Sequence record: KC690136
Origin: Escherichia phage JES2013
Length of the DNA: 64,000 nucleotides
Reading direction: 5' to 3' (one strand)
Below are positions 3,492 to 39,250 of this stretch, one piece after another. Under the pieces are notes generated by a model that worked only from the letters and a program-made list of their open reading frames with translations, made no database searches and had not been told where the DNA came from. How positions within the stretch are numbered: the stretch's first letter is position 1; the number at the start of each line of letters is the position of its first letter. Both the position numbers and the translations under genes were made by a program.

Positions 3492-4310
3492 TTGAGTAAG
3501 AAAGAGTCCAACGACAAATATTACACAAACCCTGAGTATGCAGAATATCTTGTTGGTAAAGTAAAAGATAAGTATGGGAATTGTGCATACGTTGAGCCTT
3601 CTGCTGGAAGAGGTTCTTTTTCAAAACTATTTTCAGAGATACTGTCGTACGATTTAGTACCAGATCCTGAATTTGAAGGACCAACACCGTGCATTCAGGC
3701 AAACTTCTTGGAGGTGCACCCCAAGGCAGATGTCTTCATAGGTAACCCACCGTTTGGTAAGAATTCATCTTTAGCTTGCAAATTCTTTAACCATTGTGCA
3801 TCATTGCTAGAGCTTGGCGGGGCTATAGCCTTCATCTTGCCACGGACATTTGAAAAAATATTTTTTTCAAACAAACTGGACATGTCTATGCACCTTGTCT
3901 ACAGCGAAAGGTGCCCTAAGAACTCGTTTTTACTTAATGGCAAACCTTATGACGTGCCATGTGTTTTCCAAATTTGGGAGAAAAAGGCGTGCAATAGGGA
4001 TCCTGTAGATATTGGAGAGAATAAGTTATTTTCTTTTAGCACACCGGATGACTACGACTTCTGTGTAAGACGTGTTGGGTATAACGCTGGAAAAGTATTG
4101 GGTGATGATGATCCAAAATCTGAAGAATCTACATATTTCATAAAATCTTTAGTTGACGGTGTTGACAGAGTGTTTGCTGAATGCTATTCTTCTTTTCAAG
4201 AAGAAGCAGGTAAGACTGCTGGAATGAAGAGTATAGGCAAGAAAGAACTACAATACATTTTGGAGACCCGGTATGATCAAAAGCATAGACTTGACCAAAG
4301 AACTTACTGA
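3492..4310 (+). CDS. DNA N6-adenine methyltransferase (gamma-class-like)
   Basis: TTG start; motif I EPSAGRGSF then motif IV NPPF. Confidence 0.55.
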   Translation: MSKKESNDKYYTNPEYAEYLVGKVKDKYGNCAYVEPSAGRGSFSKLFSEILSYDLVPDPEFEGPTPCIQANFLEVHPKADVFIGNPPFGKNSSLACKFFNHCASLLELGGAIAFILPRTFEKIFFSNKLDMSMHLVYSERCPKNSFLLNGKPYDVPCVFQIWEKKACNRDPVDIGENKLFSFSTPDDYDFCVRRVGYNAGKVLGDDDPKSEESTYFIKSLVDGVDRVFAECYSSFQEEAGKTAGMKSIGKKELQYILETRYDQKHRLDQRTY

Positions 4311-4746: not shown

Positions 4747-4950
4747 TTGGAGACCGCAATGACACTAAAGTTAACAGTTCCAGACAGCTTTTCAGAAAAC
4801 TTTATCCCAGAAATGATGGATAAGATGCGATCATTGCTTGATCAGATTGAAGAGGCTGTTTGGGAAGACGATGCTGTAGTGGCTAACGAGCTGGTAGATA
4901 AGTGTAAAAGTATTATTGATGCAGTTGAAGAATACCACGGAGGTTTTTGA
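4747..4950 (+). CDS. hypothetical small acidic protein
   Basis: GGAG RBS upstream; ATGA overlap with next gene. Confidence 0.45.
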   Translation: METAMTLKLTVPDSFSENFIPEMMDKMRSLLDQIEEAVWEDDAVVANELVDKCKSIIDAVEEYHGGF

Positions 4951-5564
4951 TGGATATTATTGTTCTTAACGCCCCACCTAGTAGTGGTAAGGATCACATT
5001 GCAGATCTCTTGTTGGAAGCTATTCCTAACTCACACCATCGTGAGGTTAAGGAGATGCTCTTCAGCGTGGCAATTAAGGCAGCTGGTGTAACTCCTCAAC
5101 TCTGGAATGCACTTTATGACCGCCACTACAAAGAAGAGCCTTGCCCTTTCTTAATGATAGACGGTAAGCATGTTTCTCCGCGAGAGTGGATGATCCATTG
5201 TAGTGAAAATCTGATTAAACCTATCTTTGGTGAAGATGCTTTCGGTAAGGCCGCAGTCACATCCTTGAAGAAAGATTTCCCTAAAGGTAAAGGGGTTGTT
5301 GTTTACTCCGATGGTGGATTCAAAGAGGAGCTGGCATGCCTTAGTGAGTACGCATACAGCACAGGTGGAGATCTGTTGTTGTTCCGTATTCACCGTGTTG
5401 GATATGACTGGGGAAATGATTCCAGAACCTATCTAAGTCTGGAAAAGAACGGAATAAAAGGGATTGAGTTCGATGTTGTAAATCCTGAAGGTGCACCTTG
5501 GGAATGTGCATCGGAGATTGTGTGCAAGTATATTGATGCTAAAGAGGCCCAAGAAGAATGTTAA
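4947..5564 (+). CDS. deoxynucleoside monophosphate kinase (T4 gp1-like P-loop kinase)
   Basis: N-terminal P-loop NAPPSSGKDHIAD resembles T4 dNMP kinase SGKDT. Confidence 0.45.
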   Translation: MMDIIVLNAPPSSGKDHIADLLLEAIPNSHHREVKEMLFSVAIKAAGVTPQLWNALYDRHYKEEPCPFLMIDGKHVSPREWMIHCSENLIKPIFGEDAFGKAAVTSLKKDFPKGKGVVVYSDGGFKEELACLSEYAYSTGGDLLLFRIHRVGYDWGNDSRTYLSLEKNGIKGIEFDVVNPEGAPWECASEIVCKYIDAKEAQEEC

Positions 5565-6152
5565 TCGGAATTGATGTAGATTTGACACTGGTAGATTCAG
5601 GAACAGCATGGTGGGAGTGGTTGGAGCGTTTGTATGGTCCAGCCAGTAAGACAGTCGTTAAACCTTCTAATGGGCTGATGTATTACGATCTGTCAAAGTA
5701 TTGGCCTGATCGCCCCAAAGAAAACATCATAGGACCTTTTGATTTCTGGAGTGATCCGTTCCTCTACGACTTTCTTAAGCCTGAAGAGGGGGGCTATTGA
5801 GGTTATGAAAGATTTGGTGGCTCGCGGTCACAAGCTCGCATTTATCTCGGTATGCAAGAAAGGTCACCTTGCATCTAAATCAAGGTTCTTAAAGCGTTGG
5901 ACCAGTGATTTTATGGATCTGGATGATCACACCCAGGGTCACGGCTTCTACGCCACACATTTTAAAGGAAATGTGGCTGTAGATGTTATAATTGACGACA
6001 GGCATGAATACCTGAACCAATTCGCTTCACGACCTGAAGTTATTAAAATCCTAAAAGATACGCCTTATGAGCAATTTGAGGAGTTAAAGGTCAGTGTTGA
6101 CTATACCGCTGATAGCTGGTATAAAATAGGAAAGTTTTTAGAAGGTATTTGA
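5558..6152 (+). CDS. 5'(3')-deoxyribonucleotidase (NT5C/HAD family), reading frame broken at G6 homopolymer 5788-5793
   Basis: Track ORFs 5558-5800 and 5739-6152 in different frames; DVDLT motif I in the first, K...W and DVIIDD in the second; removing one G restores LKPEEGAIEVM. Confidence 0.5.
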
Positions 6153-29246: not shown

Positions 29247-29455
29247 TCAACACACATGCATCTGAAGAGACATCAAAAGGAGTGACTATATGTCCCTTGG
29301 CTGAGCCAGTGAAAGAGGAAAACTTCGATTCTGAAGATTCTCCATCTTCGCTCCAGGTAGACCCTGAGGCTGATGACCTAACGTGGGAAGACATCGTAGA
29401 TATCTGGTTCTCTGTTATGCCTGAGCACGAAGAGTTCAGGGGTGGTAGACTATGA
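29243..29455 (+). CDS. small acidic protein (70 aa)
   Basis: Internal ATG of track ORF 29042-29455; the upstream part overlaps a promoter and the small peptide gene. Confidence 0.3.
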   Translation: MINTHASEETSKGVTICPLAEPVKEENFDSEDSPSSLQVDPEADDLTWEDIVDIWFSVMPEHEEFRGGRL

Positions 29456-29495
29456 AGCACCGAGCCCACACAAGTTCCTCATGCTAAAGCATGGC

Positions 29496-30682
29496 CTGAA
29501 GAGGCAAACGTGCATAATTCCTGTGCATCGGAACGTATGAAACCTTGTTCACACTCTCATTTCCAGAGGAGATTTTATGAAGATAGAAATATTTGGTGGA
29601 GCTGACAACACTCGTGGCCTGATTTACCTTGAATTCGATGAATCATACCTACCAGAGGTGTTAAATATAGACTCTGTTGCGGAGGCTTTGGGAGTAAACC
29701 CTAAAGAACTCCACTCTTGTGCTGAGATCGATGGTTGGGAAGAGACCATGAACATTGATTTCAGTGAAGTAGAGGATGAACCGCTGGACTGACACACAAT
29801 TAGCTGCCCGGCTAAAGTGCTGGAAGCACCTATAACACATCTTTCAACTAAATTTCCCACCACAACAATCACTTACCTCCCATACATGACTGTTTGCTTG
29901 TTTAGTGAGCAGTCATGCCTTGACATTCTTGCCTATCCTGATAAAATTAAGTTCTTCTCTTTTCTTTTACCGAGTAATTCGGGTTTTCTGTTCTCTTCGG
30001 TTTGAAGGGGTATGGAGATACACCTGAGTGAACAGGGTGAACAACCGAACATTTGGCTATGGCATTAGCATGGCGAAGCGGACGGGTGACGAAAGAGGGG
30101 CCGGAGGACACCAGTCACTGCCATATGGTATATGGGTGATAACCTGAAGAGTCTGAATAAGTGTTTAAGTACCAGTCAGAGGAAAAGGTGAATGGTAGCC
30201 GAAGGGGGAGGGGGGTTTCTTGTATCTTTAATTTGTATATTATGTATACACTTGTAAACCAATCTCATTTGAATTTGTTTACCACACAAAGTGGATAGAG
30301 ACAAATATTACCTATTAAACTTGAATTATTTATAGAAAATACCACAACACTACTTAAGTCTTTGATTTTACACACAAATCCTGCAGATATTCACCCTCCA
30401 TATTTAACATACTTGTAACATATTCCATACTCTACCTGCCCGATCAATTCACCCAACTACATCCCCATATTTTCCCTGTCTGTACTACCCCTGCCCCGCC
30501 GGGAGTCCCGTCATATCTGGCTTTCCAGCAAATATCACACCCACAAATATCATTGCCTGAAGAGGGTTTCGTCCCATAATACATGCCTTACCTGAAGAGC
30601 GCTTCATATACCCCGTAAATTTTTTAATTGACCCCCTCCCCGCCGCCGGAGGGGTCGGCTTTTCCCACACAGACCTGAAGAG
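29496..30682. repeat. five dispersed copies of 9-mer CCTGAAGAG
   Basis: Exact copies at 29496, 30143, 30556, 30591, 30674. Confidence 0.5.
29577..29792 (+). CDS. small acidic protein
   Basis: GAGGAG RBS; MKIEIFGG start; last gene of the + block. Confidence 0.5.
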   Translation: MKIEIFGGADNTRGLIYLEFDESYLPEVLNIDSVAEALGVNPKELHSCAEIDGWEETMNIDFSEVEDEPLD

Positions 30683-31210
30683 TCAGCCAGAAATATCTGA
30701 ATGGACCCAATTCTGCCCTGTTATGAGCCGTAGCGACTGGAGTGCTGCCAGGCGGACGAAATGGGAATACTTCTCATTCTTATAACAATTCTCAAATATC
30801 GAGGCAGTGAGGCAAATTAATAGGTAAGGCCGTTCACATAGTGGCACAACATTTGCAGTCTATCTGATGTGGTTGAATGAGAATACCTATCATTGTGAGA
30901 ATAGTTATCATTACGGGCAATTTAACATAATACCCATTATGCGCACCACTGGCGATACATACAGGGATTGATAACATGAGTTACTGTTTACGCATATAAC
31001 AATTATATTTCTTATCATTTGTGTGGGATATAGTTAGCAGCCGATAGATTAGATATTGACCTGCGGACTTCTGACCGTCTAGACGTCTAAACGCCCACAC
31101 AACAAGGCTTATACATACATCGCTGAATGTAAACATGGCCGCAAAAATGCTACCATACAAGATTGTAAATTTTTCATGCAGCACTTGACAAAGAGGAGAA
31201 AAACTTGTCT

Positions 31211-31440
31211 GACACTTTAGACATACTGGTGACACAATATGACACTTTAGACTTAATTGACATGCCTGACTGTTTACGCTGTCACTATTCGCGCTATTAC
31301 TATTCACTCCCTTTACTGTTCACGCTCTTACTGTTTACATGCTTAATGGTTTACATGCTTAATAGACTGCATGTCTAATAGTTTACATAGCTAACTGTTC
31401 ACATACTTATCATTTACATGATTGACTGTTTACACAGAGA
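31211..31440. repeat. iteron-like array: GACACTTTAGAC x2, about 8 copies of TGTT(T/C)ACA, 16-bp tandem GTTTACATGCTTAAT
   Basis: Direct repeats read in sequence (31211-31222, 31241-31252; 31273-31435). Confidence 0.55.
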
Positions 31441-31447
31441 TGATAAG

Positions 31448-31731
31448 CCATGACATTCGTTTGCATGACAATAATTAACAAGATAACAATTGACAAGCTA
31501 ACAGCCAACAAGCTGACAATTAACTTGTTTACAATAGATGACATAATATAAAAGCAGGGCAACTATTAGAAGATCTATAGTTGCCTTGCTTGTTATGTCA
31601 TGATTAACTAAATACAAGGCAACTATGATCTGATTAATAGTTTGCAAACAAACTATCACGGGGGTGATGGTTACTGCTTTTATATTATGTCGCGACTCCG
31701 TCGCGCCATGCCATTCGTTTGCATAGTTGCC
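31448..31731. repeat. GGCAACTAT inverted/direct repeats and duplicated GCCATG(A/C)CATTCGTTTGCAT
   Basis: Palindrome GGCAACTAT-N10-ATAGTTGCC (31558-31586); further copies at 31618, 31723; 19-bp repeat at 31448-31466 and 31706-31724. Confidence 0.5.
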
Positions 31732-32340
31732 TTATTGTTACAGATAAAATAATTGTATTGTTAATTATTTCTTATCTTTCTATTAGTCATCTAATGATTC
31801 CAGTCAATATAGTAATGTACAGTAAACATTAGACGACTAAAGATTTATCTGCTTATAATAACTTACCGTGACAATTTCGGACTGTTTACGAAAAATGTTG
31901 GCACCTAAGCTGATTTATGTTATGCAGTTTACACGAATAATTATTTTATGCAGGTATTGACTATTCCATTATTCTATGGTTGGAATAAATACTTAGCAGA
32001 CTATAGAATGGTGAGCGTACGTAAATTCTGAGATCTGGCGGCTATAGTTATACTCGATTTTTCACGTAGAGCACGCTTTTGTGGTTATGTAAGTGTATGA
32101 CTTATAAAGATTTTTAGTTGTTGACAAGACACTGAAGATATGCATCAGGTTAAATTTTGTGCAATAGCTGCATTACGTGCAATTTTGGAAGGAAAAACGG
32201 GTAAAAATAGCCCTGCTACCACACAATGAAAAGTTATGCAATAGTTATTTTACATGTATATTTGTACAGTGTGTGGGGTTGATGGCTCGTCAATTATTCC
32301 ACTTGCCAGGTAGGGCCGTTTATGGTAGGGGGAAGATCAG

Positions 32341-32367
32341 ACAAAAAGAAAGGGGCCTAAGCCCCTT
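32341..32367 (-). terminator. intrinsic terminator ending the - strand block
   Basis: Minus strand: AAGGGGC-TTAG-GCCCCTT followed by TCTTTTTGT, just after stop of 32386-32805. Confidence 0.65.
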
Positions 32368-32385
32368 GATAATTCAGTTAAAAAA

Positions 32386-32805
32386 TTATAATGATTCGTA
32401 TATTTCAAAAATCCGATTTGCCAGGTCGTTACGGTACCGGAATTTTTCATCACGTTTGATCATAAGATCTTTATAGCCGTACTCTTTAAGCACTTCATTA
32501 ACTTTATGGCGGCACACCTTCATATTATCCTGAGCGTCACCAATAAACCTGTTGCTATGGTGCATGGCTTTAATTTCTTCTTCCAGGACCAGGGCAACTA
32601 TGCGGACCGGATCAAGCTGATAGGCGGTAACATCAATGCGGCATTGTAAACGGCTTTTTACGTCTGCCACCGGATATACTGCAACCTCTTCCCCGTCAAC
32701 ATTGACAATAATTAGTTTACCATCGATTTCGAATCCTTTCGCCGCCGGACCGTGACAAAAAGCGTTATCAAAGCTATATGCCGGATTATTAGATTTAATG
32801 TTCAT
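32386..32805 (-). CDS. hypothetical protein
   Basis: Track ORF; AGAGGTAAAAACACC RBS; last gene of - block. Confidence 0.5.
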   Translation of the reverse strand: MNIKSNNPAYSFDNAFCHGPAAKGFEIDGKLIIVNVDGEEVAVYPVADVKSRLQCRIDVTAYQLDPVRIVALVLEEEIKAMHHSNRFIGDAQDNMKVCRHKVNEVLKEYGYKDLMIKRDEKFRYRNDLANRIFEIYESL

Positions 32806-39215: not shown

Positions 39216-39250
39216 AGTGTTTACTCCTTCCTTCTTGCTTTGATGTGGTT

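What the first reader, a model, noticed from the sequence alone, without database searches (positions are those of the whole stretch)
29496..30682. Recurrent 9-mer CCTGAAGAG (five exact copies in 1.2 kb)
Exact copies at 29496, 30143, 30556, 30591 and 30674, all in the same orientation. Five copies of a 9-mer in about 1.2 kb is far above chance; this looks like a binding-site array for a sequence-specific protein or a phage-specific promoter core.
Basis: seen in the sequence. Interest (0 to 1): 0.55.

Follow-up and report, generated by a model that had tools for sequence, protein, structure and literature searches.

The report
Oriented 9-mer array beside phage terminal repeat
Five same-strand copies of CCTGAAGAG sit in the gene-free DNA just inside the right-hand terminal repeat of an rV5-like coliphage and are conserved across three related phage genera, so they are most likely docking sites for an unidentified protein that acts at the genome end, much like the CCTAAAG arrays beside the T7 terminal repeat.

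Summary
CCTGAAGAG occurs at 29495 (not 29496), 30143, 30556, 30591 and 30674, all on the + strand. About 0.003 copies are expected in that span.

The window is a Vequintavirus (rV5-like) genome. In the whole rV5 genome the 9-mer occurs nine times: these five copies plus four in-frame Pro-Glu-Glu codons. It is therefore not a genome-wide promoter.

The array lies in the known "non-coding box" of rV5. Phage EdH4, whose record includes both terminal repeat copies, places the 459-bp direct terminal repeat (DTR) at window 30751-31209. The last copy ends 68 nt before the repeat.

The copies stay intact in divergent relatives whose flanks align at only about 40%. CCTGAAG[A/T]G recurs, always pointing toward the DTR, in Mydovirus (KPP-1) and Seunavirus (PVP-SE1, 4MG).

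Contexts differ between copies: terminator loops, -35 overlaps, the inside of a candidate non-coding RNA. This argues for direct sequence recognition rather than one shared structure.

Best reading, inferred and not shown: a protein-binding array belonging to the genome-end (concatemer-junction) control region. The closest analogue is the T7 CCTAAAG arrays. The reader protein and the exact role are unknown.

The parts
29495..29503 (+). Copy A of CCTGAAGAG, in the 120-nt gap between two small ORFs, 1256 nt before the DTR
   Evidence: Invariant in 14/14 Vequintavirus loci. Homologous copy in L007/L019/L034. CATAAT lies 9 nt downstream.
30143..30151 (+). Copy B, inside the ultra-conserved candidate non-coding RNA, 608 nt before the DTR
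   Evidence: Conserved in the L007 lineage despite a 21-nt insertion just downstream.
30556..30564 (+). Copy C, overlapping the -35 (TTGCCT) of a sigma-70-like promoter (30553-30580) and preceded by two AAATATCA repeats; 195 nt before the DTR
   Evidence: Homologous copy in L007rc at 2935.
30591..30599 (+). Copy D, apparently a local duplicate of C (18 nt at 83%); 160 nt before the DTR. Mutated in 2 of 14 isolates.
   Evidence: D15. L004 has CCTGAAGAT and FV3 has CCCGAAGAG.
30674..30682 (+). Copy E, 17 nt after a GC-rich hairpin; ends 68 nt before the DTR left boundary (start is 77 nt upstream). Mutated in 1 of 14 isolates.
   Evidence: Mangalyan has CCTGGAGAG. Homologues: L007rc 3046 and KPP-1 3500 (GACCTGAAGTGTCAGCC).
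29261..29269 (+). One-mismatch copy TCTGAAGAG, preceded by CACACA, at the start of a 70-aa ORF
   Evidence: D14.
30751..31209 (.). Direct terminal repeat (DTR): virion left end at 30751, right end at 31209, one copy per junction in a concatemer
   Evidence: The first and last 459 bp of the EdH4 record are identical and map here. Korf 2019 reports 458-bp terminal redundancies for EdH4 and HdK5 (PMC6563267). The HdK5 record also ends at window 31209. By coordinate arithmetic that assumes no indels, ECP2309 ends and OX460980 starts at the same position. Conservation collapses right after 31209.
30530..30800 (+). Second oriented repeat, AAATATC, at 30530, 30545, 30691 and 30794, straddling the DTR left boundary. 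The last copy is 43 nt inside the DTR, as in KPP-1, PVP-SE1 and 4MG.
29920..29947 (+). Near-consensus sigma-70 promoter (TTGACA, 16-nt spacer, TG-n-TAAAAT) pointing toward the DTR
   Evidence: Also present in the L007 lineage, with TGcTATAAT as the -10.
29953..30218 (+). Candidate structured non-coding RNA that contains copy B and ends in a G5AG6 run followed by AT-rich variable DNA
   Evidence: About 100% conserved in 14 isolates, above the neighbouring genes. 9 of 50 predicted pairs show compensatory change between the two lineages, against 1-2 in slid controls. No Rfam hit.
30630..30663 (+). GC-rich hairpin (GACCCCCTCC / GGAGGGGTC) with a short T-run, just upstream of copy E
   Evidence: Read directly. 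An equivalent hairpin precedes the last copy in L007 and L019.
31210..31440 (+). Repeats on the other flank of the DTR: TGACAY units at 10-11-nt period (31210, 31240), then 16-nt iteron-like ACTGTTTACAYGCTTA units. ACTGTTTAC is at 30983, 31269, 31330, 31425 and 31881.
   Evidence: (D1, D17).

Best explanation
The five R-CCTGAAGAG copies are recognition sites for one sequence-specific protein, probably phage-encoded, probably DNA-binding, and not yet identified. They form part of the cis-acting control region built around the genome's direct terminal repeat.

In replicating concatemers the array lies on the right-genome-end side of the junction. All sites point toward the repeat, and three lie within 200 bp of the left cut site. 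I infer that the bound protein marks or orients this side of the junction for end processing and packaging, either by helping terminase find the junction or by organising the DNA next to the cut.

Shown here: the array exists, it is oriented, it is conserved, it is exclusive to this locus, and it abuts the DTR.

Inferred: protein binding, DNA-level rather than RNA-level recognition, and the packaging or end-processing role.
For: 1. Locus exclusivity. rV5 has 9 copies in 137,947 bp: five here and four in-frame P-E-E codons.

2. Position. The DTR maps to 30751-31209, and the last copy ends 68 nt upstream.

3. Selection on the 9-mer itself. The divergent lineage L007/L019/L033/L034 keeps 4-6 exact copies in the same order and orientation, while the surrounding non-coding DNA aligns at only about 40-45%.

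4. Breadth. CCTGAAG[A/T]G occurs 3-5 times, all forward, upstream of the DTR in KPP-1, PVP-SE1 and 4MG. The nearest copies lie at -317, -173 and -63. The KPP-1 DTR is published (PMC9862379) and its left boundary is confirmed by the start of the KP12 record.

5. Heterogeneous contexts. Copies sit in a hairpin loop, over a -35, inside an RNA and after a hairpin, with no common predicted fold. This fits direct sequence read-out.

6. Redundancy. D or E is mutated in single isolates, and spacing varies (83, 102 or 150 nt between the last copies).

7. Precedent. The T7 160-bp terminal repeat is flanked by same-strand CCTAAAG arrays, including one CCTAAAGAG.

8. Missing reader. No small terminase is recognisable next to the rV5 large-terminase gene, so the DNA-recognition component of packaging in this group is still unassigned.
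Against: No binding or packaging data exist for this group.

Two copies (A, B) lie 0.6-1.3 kb from the cut site, farther than known pac or cosB sites reach.

The distance of the nearest copy to the DTR is not fixed between genera (63-317 nt). The sequences right at the DTR boundaries (AGRCGGAC on the left; TTGACAA-purine-rich-TTGT on the right) are themselves conserved and could be the true terminase sites.

All copies also lie on the sense strand of rightward transcription, so RNA-level recognition is not excluded.

Several copies overlap -35 hexamers, which fits a transcriptional operator as well.

The function of the T7 arrays used as precedent is, to my recollection, not established.
Confidence: 0.4

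Rival explanations
1. Operator sites for a transcriptional regulator. A repressor, activator or roadblock binds the 9-mers to control the rightward sigma-70 promoters and terminators that send RNA polymerase toward the terminal repeat. It would shut off or time transcription across the concatemer junction.
For: - The motif overlaps the -35 hexamer, with a -10 exactly 10 nt after it, at window copy C (TTGCCT...CATAAT), KPP-1 2542 and 3500, and 4MG 1268.
- Copy A has CATAAT 9 nt downstream.
- Three genera carry the motif in the loop and stem of a terminator hairpin (GGGAGCC-TGAAGA-GGCTCC plus a T-run).
- All copies are co-directional with transcription.
- The region lies where two convergent transcription units meet.
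Against: - Copies B, D and E, and all L007-lineage copies, lack a usable -10.
- In PVP-SE1 the homologous promoter has lost the motif overlap.
- A regulator with targets at only one locus in 138 kb is unusual.
- This reading is not exclusive of the main explanation.
Confidence: 0.2
2. RNA-level motif. CCUGAAGAG is read in rightward transcripts by an RNA-binding protein or endoribonuclease, for processing, stabilising or sequestering. The conserved ~265-nt RNA carries one copy.
For: - All copies, in all four genera, are on the strand transcribed rightward.
- Copy B sits in a candidate structured RNA with a strong promoter, with GAAGAG predicted mostly unpaired.
- The KPP-1, 4MG and PVP-SE1 copies are displayed in a hairpin loop.
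Against: - There is no consistent structural context among copies.
- Copy E lies after a terminator-like hairpin.
- The copies that overlap a -35 hexamer, such as KPP-1 2542, are not transcribed from those promoters.
- KPP-1 has one exact copy on the opposite strand inside its DTR.
- No Rfam family matches, including hammerhead (core CUGANGA), even at E<=5.
Confidence: 0.15
3. Replication-origin element. The 9-mers are initiator or primase-loading boxes of an origin made of the strong promoter, the G-rich RNA end and the AT-rich stretch at 30220-30300.
For: - The architecture of promoter, structured RNA, G5AG6 run and AT-rich variable DNA resembles transcription-primed origins. This resemblance is from my own knowledge of ColE1, T7 and T4 origins.
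- The rV5 authors saw a GC-skew change at rV5 104425-105475, which corresponds roughly to window 30200-31250 (PMC3606486).
Against: - Spacing is irregular (35 to 648 nt), unlike iterons.
- The iteron-like array is a different motif on the other side of the DTR.
- KPP-1 and PVP-SE1 keep the 9-mer but lack the promoter-RNA-G-run module.
Confidence: 0.08
4. Core of a phage-specific promoter class.
For: - Orientation is uniform.
- Some copies precede a -10-like hexamer at a fixed 10 nt.
Against: - The motif is absent from every other intergenic region of rV5.
- There are no genes downstream of B to E.
- -10 elements are lacking in half the copies and in the whole L007 lineage.
- The family has no phage RNA polymerase or late sigma (PMC3606486).
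Confidence: 0.03
5. No function of its own. The copies are relics of duplicated promoter or terminator modules, or of a small mobile element that targets the sequence.
For: - C and D share 18 nt at 83%, and A and C share 15 nt at 93% (D15 and D19).
- L005/L035 carry a 46-nt insertion exactly after copy A with AAGAG duplicated.
Against: - Flanks beyond about 5 nt are unrelated.
- Nine of nine bases are kept at homologous positions where the flanks have diverged to about 40% identity.
- The motif persists across three genera.
Confidence: 0.04

Closest known systems
T7 short-repeat arrays flanking the 160-bp terminal repeat (CCTAAAG arrays; I recall them being called SRL and SRR)
   Same: Both are phages with a short exact DTR and a T7-type DNA polymerase and primase-helicase (rV5 annotation). 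Both have a 7-9-bp motif repeated on one strand in gene-free DNA directly beside the repeat. The motifs are nearly the same: T7 has CCTAAAG, once as CCTAAAGAG, against CCTGAAGAG here. Both have a promoter upstream that fires toward the junction (T7 phiOR at 39229; here 29920-29947). T7 was checked directly.
   Different: T7 uses the same motif on both flanks and inside the repeat, with a regular 13-nt period on the left-end side. Here the motif is on one flank only, irregularly spaced over 1.2 kb, and the other flank carries different repeats (TGACAY, ACTGTTTAC). Terminase and virion are unrelated in type (myovirus with Felix O1-like structural genes). The function of the T7 arrays is, as far as I recall, also unproven.
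pac / cosB-type terminase recognition arrays (lambda cosB R sites, P1 pac hexamers; T7 PacB/PacC as summarised in PMC9860248)
   Same: Several copies of a short asymmetric site cluster on one side of the cut that creates the genome end.
   Different: Known arrays span about 100-200 bp, sit in or next to the terminase genes, and have a known small-terminase reader. Here two copies lie 0.6-1.3 kb away, the terminase gene is about 45 kb distant (rV5 58-61 kb against 104 kb), and no small terminase is recognisable.
T4 MotA-box middle promoters (a box replacing the -35, with the sigma-70 -10 retained)
   Same: At some copies the 9-mer occupies roughly the -35 to -24 zone, with a -10 at a fixed 10 nt (window C; KPP-1 2542 and 3500; 4MG 1268).
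   Different: MotA boxes occur at dozens of promoters genome-wide, upstream of genes. This motif is confined to one locus, and half the copies have no -10.
T5 injection-stop / large non-coding repeat region near the terminal repeat (from memory)
   Same: A kilobase-scale gene-free region near a genome end, packed with direct and inverted repeats. The L007 relative even carries three perfect DnaA boxes.
   Different: There is no sequence similarity. No evidence exists for two-step DNA transfer in rV5-like phages. The window itself has no DnaA box in the region.

Membership tests
T7-type terminal-repeat-flanking short-repeat arrays | Genome with a short exact direct terminal repeat | tested here: met
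   The 459-bp repeat of EdH4 maps to window 30751-31209. The 458-bp redundancy is published.
T7-type terminal-repeat-flanking short-repeat arrays | Short motif repeated on one strand in non-coding DNA directly adjacent to the repeat | tested here: met
   Five + strand copies, starting 77 to 1256 nt before the DTR. T7 reference pattern verified.
T7-type terminal-repeat-flanking short-repeat arrays | Same motif on both flanks and within the repeat, at a regular period of about 13 nt | tested here: not met
   No copy lies in the DTR or to its right. Spacings are 648, 413, 35 and 83 nt. The right flank carries other repeats.
pac/cosB terminase-binding array | Clustered repeats within about 200 bp of the cleavage site | tested here: inconclusive
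   C, D and E lie at -195, -160 and -77; A and B lie at -1256 and -608. The nearest-copy distance varies from 63 to 317 nt between genera.
pac/cosB terminase-binding array | Bound by the small terminase subunit | not testable with these tools
   No small terminase is identifiable beside the rV5 large-terminase gene; the neighbouring genes are spanins.
Phage-specific promoter class | Recurs upstream of many genes across the genome | tested here: not met
   All non-coding copies in the 137,947-bp rV5 genome lie in this one 1.2-kb patch.
Phage-specific promoter class | Fixed distance to a -10 or start site at every copy | tested here: not met
   Only C has a -10-like hexamer at scan-passing spacing. 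A has CATAAT 9 nt after the motif, a hexamer spacing of 15. None of the L007-lineage copies has one.
Replication-origin iterons | Three or more direct repeats of about 17-22 bp at regular spacing beside an AT-rich unwinding region | tested here: not met
   The conserved core is 9-10 bp and spacing is irregular. The iteron-like 16-nt array is a different motif at 31260-31440.
Hammerhead ribozyme (core CUGANGA) | Match to the Rfam covariance models | tested here: not met
   No hit at gathering score in the window, nor at E<=5 in 29400-32500.
Chi/KOPS-like polar sequences | Strand-biased distribution over the whole replicon relative to an end or dif | tested here: not met
   Orientation is uniform, but the motif is local only. 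There is no clustering of host Chi or KOPS at the ends.

The most novel reading that the evidence does not exclude
The 9-mers might not be static docking sites. They could be polar signals read by a moving machine, such as the packaging motor, a helicase-nuclease entering from the right genome end, or RNA polymerase. In that reading the ultra-conserved ~265-nt RNA, which carries one copy, would act as a decoy or timer for the same reader. That would be an RNA/DNA dual-use motif controlling when the concatemer junction is cut. The uniform orientation toward the end, the irregular spacing, and the presence of one copy inside a strongly expressed candidate RNA do not exclude this.
Probability: 0.07. 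Interest if true: 0.75.

Novelty: new member of a known kind. Interest (0 to 1): 0.45.

Why it matters
rV5-like phages are widely used in typing sets, biocontrol and therapy cocktails. Their 2.6-kb "non-coding box" has had no assigned function since 2013, and their packaging recognition system is unknown.

Placing a subfamily-wide, oriented motif array directly beside the terminal repeat gives a concrete, mutable target. It can be used to define the packaging or end-processing signal, which is needed for synthetic rebooting, transducing particles and correct genome-end annotation. It also offers bait for finding the missing DNA-recognition protein.

The near-identity to the T7 CCTAAAG arrays hints that such arrays are a general, still unexplained feature of short-DTR phages.

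Tried and rejected
- **Rfam.** Scans at gathering score (whole window) and at E<=5 (29400-32500) gave only two chance-level hits. This rejects hammerhead and other known RNAs.
- **tRNA scan.** None found.
- **Common RNA fold around the copies.** None seen.
- **DnaA boxes.** None in the window's non-coding region, although the L007 relative has three.
- **Chi and KOPS near the ends.** No clustering.
- **Neighbouring small proteins.** Pfam and PHROGs scans gave no DNA-binding candidate. The only lead is a DsbA-like 'transcriptional regulator' (phrog_639) with a sub-threshold GapR-like match.
- **Locating the homologous region in other genera via the DsbA-like gene.** This failed because the gene sits elsewhere in 4MG and TH18. 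The region was recovered instead through DTR homology.
- **Metagenome scan.** It added only close or L007-type relatives plus one chance hit, L036, on a contig that looks unrelated to phage (no phage-like ORFs).
- **Literature searches.** Searches for the motif, for Vequintavirinae transcriptomes and for the T7 arrays found nothing that describes this array.
- **Small ORFs inside 29953-30218.** They are not conserved in L007, so they were rejected as coding.

Full report
**Observation**

A search for CCTGAAGAG finds nine exact copies in the 64-kb window, against 0.57 expected. No shuffle out of 100 reaches nine. Five copies lie at 29495, 30143, 30556, 30591 and 30674, all on the + strand.

From base composition, 0.0034 copies are expected in that 1188-nt span, giving P(>=5) of about 4e-15. 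In the whole window only one other 9-mer, ACTGTTTAC, has four or more copies within 1.5 kb, and shuffled sequence gives none.

The four other window copies read as in-frame Pro-Glu-Glu in open frames. A one-mismatch copy, TCTGAAGAG, is at 29261.

**What the window is**

The region matches 120 Vequintavirus (rV5-like) records at 88-99.5% identity. The best match is O157 typing phage 4.

The array lies at the left edge of a gene-free stretch of about 2.6 kb (window ~29793-32385) between convergent gene clusters. The rV5 genome paper drew this stretch as a grey "non-coding" box. It found no bidirectional terminators between genes 163 and 164 and assigned the box no function (PMC3606486).

**Genome-wide count**

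I assembled the full rV5 genome from three fetches. It has nine copies in 137,947 bp. Five are the homologues of this array. Four are in-frame P-E-E codons in gp100, gp102, gp108 and gp231. There are none in the 74 kb outside the window. It also rules out a genome-wide promoter motif.

**Position relative to the genome ends**

- The EdH4 and HdK5 records end exactly at window 31209 and hold a second matching place.
- The first and last 459 bp of the EdH4 record are identical. They map to window 30751-31209.
- Korf et al. report 458-bp terminal redundancies for both phages (PMC6563267).
- By coordinate arithmetic that assumes no indels, ECP2309 ends and OX460980 starts at the same position.
- Sequence conservation among 14 isolates drops abruptly just after 31209.

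The direct terminal repeat (DTR) therefore spans 30751-31209. The array occupies the last 1.26 kb of unique DNA before the right-hand repeat copy. Copy starts lie 1256, 608, 195, 160 and 77 nt upstream of the DTR left boundary, and the last copy ends 68 nt before it.

**Conservation**

- In 14 Vequintavirus loci, copies A, B and C are invariant. D is mutated in two loci and E in one.
- These genomes are 88-99% identical overall. The informative comparison is therefore the divergent lineage found in IMG/VR and metagenomes (L007/L021, L019, L033, L034).
- There the non-coding DNA aligns at only about 40-45%. Even so, 4-6 exact copies remain, in the same order and orientation.
- The base before the motif is a purine in 15 of 16 copies. 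The base after it is free.

**Other genera**

- KPP-1 (Mydovirus) has a published 514-bp DTR (PMC9862379). It also lies between convergent clusters.
- The KPP-1 DTR left boundary is confirmed by the start of the KP12 record.
- The sequences at both DTR boundaries resemble those of the window.
- CCTGAAG[A/T]G occurs, always forward, at these distances from the DTR left boundary:
  - KPP-1: -1327, -1275 and -317.
  - PVP-SE1: -553, -525, -501 and -173.
  - 4MG: -1538, -1486 and -63, with CCTGAAGAA at -914 and CCTGAAGCG at -309 (7-mer core conserved).
- For PVP-SE1 and 4MG the DTR position is inferred from boundary homology.

**Local contexts**

- Three genera carry a copy in a terminator hairpin (GGGAGCC-TGAAGA-GGCTCC plus a T-run).
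- Several copies overlap a -35 hexamer with a -10 exactly 10 nt after the motif. These are window copy C, KPP-1 2542 and 3500, and 4MG 1268.
- Copy B lies inside a candidate RNA, and copy E follows a hairpin.
- The L007-lineage copies have no -10 element.
- Folding each copy in its context shows no shared structure.

I read this as selection on the linear sequence, that is, recognition by a sequence-specific factor.

**Neighbouring features**

The array is one of several oriented repeats around the DTR.

- AAATATC straddles the left boundary. One copy lies 43 nt inside the DTR in all four genomes.
- CACACAA occurs four times in the same orientation.
- TGACAY units at 10-11-nt period start at the first base after the DTR. 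They are followed by 16-nt iteron-like units and palindromes.

**Comparison with T7**

I fetched both T7 ends. The 160-bp terminal repeat is followed by eight exact, same-strand CCTAAAG copies, mostly 13 nt apart, plus variants. It is preceded by five related copies, one of which reads CCTAAAGAG. It also contains three more copies itself.

This is the closest known arrangement, and the motif differs at one base. The differences are:
- T7 uses one motif on both flanks and inside the repeat.
- T7 spaces the copies regularly on the left-end side.
- The array here is one-sided and dispersed.

T7 packaging is described as small-terminase recognition of PacB and cleavage at PacC (PMC9860248). Whether the CCTAAAG arrays take part is, to my recollection, not settled.

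**Explanation and rivals**

I favour, at about 0.4, a protein-binding array that belongs to the genome-end control region and helps mark or orient the junction for end processing or packaging. Binding, DNA-level action and the packaging role are all inferences.

- A transcriptional operator or roadblock for the promoters and terminators that point at the DTR (about 0.2). It explains the -35 overlaps and hairpin copies and is not exclusive of the main reading.
- RNA-level recognition (about 0.15). It is allowed by the strand bias but weakened by the heterogeneous structures and by copies that would not be transcribed from their own promoters.
- An origin role (about 0.08). The spacing fits it poorly.
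- A promoter core (about 0.03) and functionless duplication (about 0.04). Both are largely excluded.

No small terminase is recognisable beside the large-terminase gene. No neighbouring small protein has a clear DNA-binding domain. The reader protein therefore remains unknown.

**Novelty**

The papers I could search note the non-coding box and the 458-bp redundancy but not this motif. I class it as a new member of a known kind: short oriented repeat arrays beside short terminal repeats. It is subfamily-wide and testable, but no function has been demonstrated.

Noticed in passing
window 29920-30218: A near-consensus sigma-70 promoter (29920-29947) is followed by about 265 nt that are ~100% identical in 14 isolates, more conserved than the flanking genes. 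Nine of 50 predicted base pairs show compensatory changes between the two lineages (slid controls: 1-2). One relative has a 31-nt hairpin insertion, the small ORFs inside are not conserved, and there is no Rfam match. This is a candidate new phage non-coding RNA.
   Followed up: partly
window 30203-30300: The candidate RNA ends in GAAGGGGGAGGGGGG, followed by AT-rich DNA that varies between isolates. From memory, this layout resembles the G-run plus unwinding region of transcription-primed origins (ColE1 RNA II, mitochondrial CSB II).
   Followed up: no
window 30751-31209: The 459-bp direct terminal repeat of the genome lies inside this window. Many public Vequintavirus records are opened elsewhere and do not annotate it.
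   Followed up: yes
window 31210-31440: Directly after the DTR come TGACAY units at 10-11-nt period. Their number and sequence differ in almost every isolate. They are followed by five 16-nt iteron-like units (ACTGTTTACAYGCTTA). ACTGTTTAC is the only other clustered 9-mer in the window.
   Followed up: partly
window 31540-31770: A nest of inverted repeats built on CAGGGCAACTAT, including a perfect 18-nt pair at 31540-31557 / 31674-31691.
   Followed up: no
window 5780-5800: The HAD-like hydrolase gene (homologue of rV5 gp100) is split. The window has one more G than rV5 in the G-run right after the coding CCTGAAGAG copy (six G against five). The frame stops at 5800 and a second ORF (5739-6152) continues. 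This is either a sequencing error or a real frameshift.
   Followed up: no
L007 7716-8486 (+ strand as stored; reverse-complement coordinates ~1930-2700): The divergent relative carries a 256-aa HNH endonuclease gene (phrog_99, E=2e-46). It is inserted on the opposite strand between motif copy B and the next copy.
   Followed up: partly
L007 reverse complement, ~3524-3570: Three perfect host DnaA boxes (TTATCCACA) lie in a row inside what should be that phage's terminal repeat. The window has none in its non-coding region.
   Followed up: partly
L005 ~4884-4930 and L035 ~5254-5300 (homologous to window 29503): A 46-nt insertion containing a hairpin (GGTGAC-cta-GTCACC) sits exactly after copy A, with AAGAG duplicated at its ends. 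It is either a tiny mobile element that targets the motif or a slippage product.
   Followed up: no
window 29467, 29793, 30283, 30371 (also 30666): CACACAA occurs four times on the + strand and never on the - strand in the 1.3 kb before the DTR, often a few bases upstream of a CCTGAAGAG copy. The same bias is seen in KPP-1 and the L007 lineage.
   Followed up: partly
L003 (KP869102.1 13910-16400): In the closest database record, the DNA to the left of the array joins straight to the helicase/rIIB region instead of the small-ORF cluster seen in the window. The 'partial genome' record looks like a scaffold joined near the genome end.
   Followed up: no
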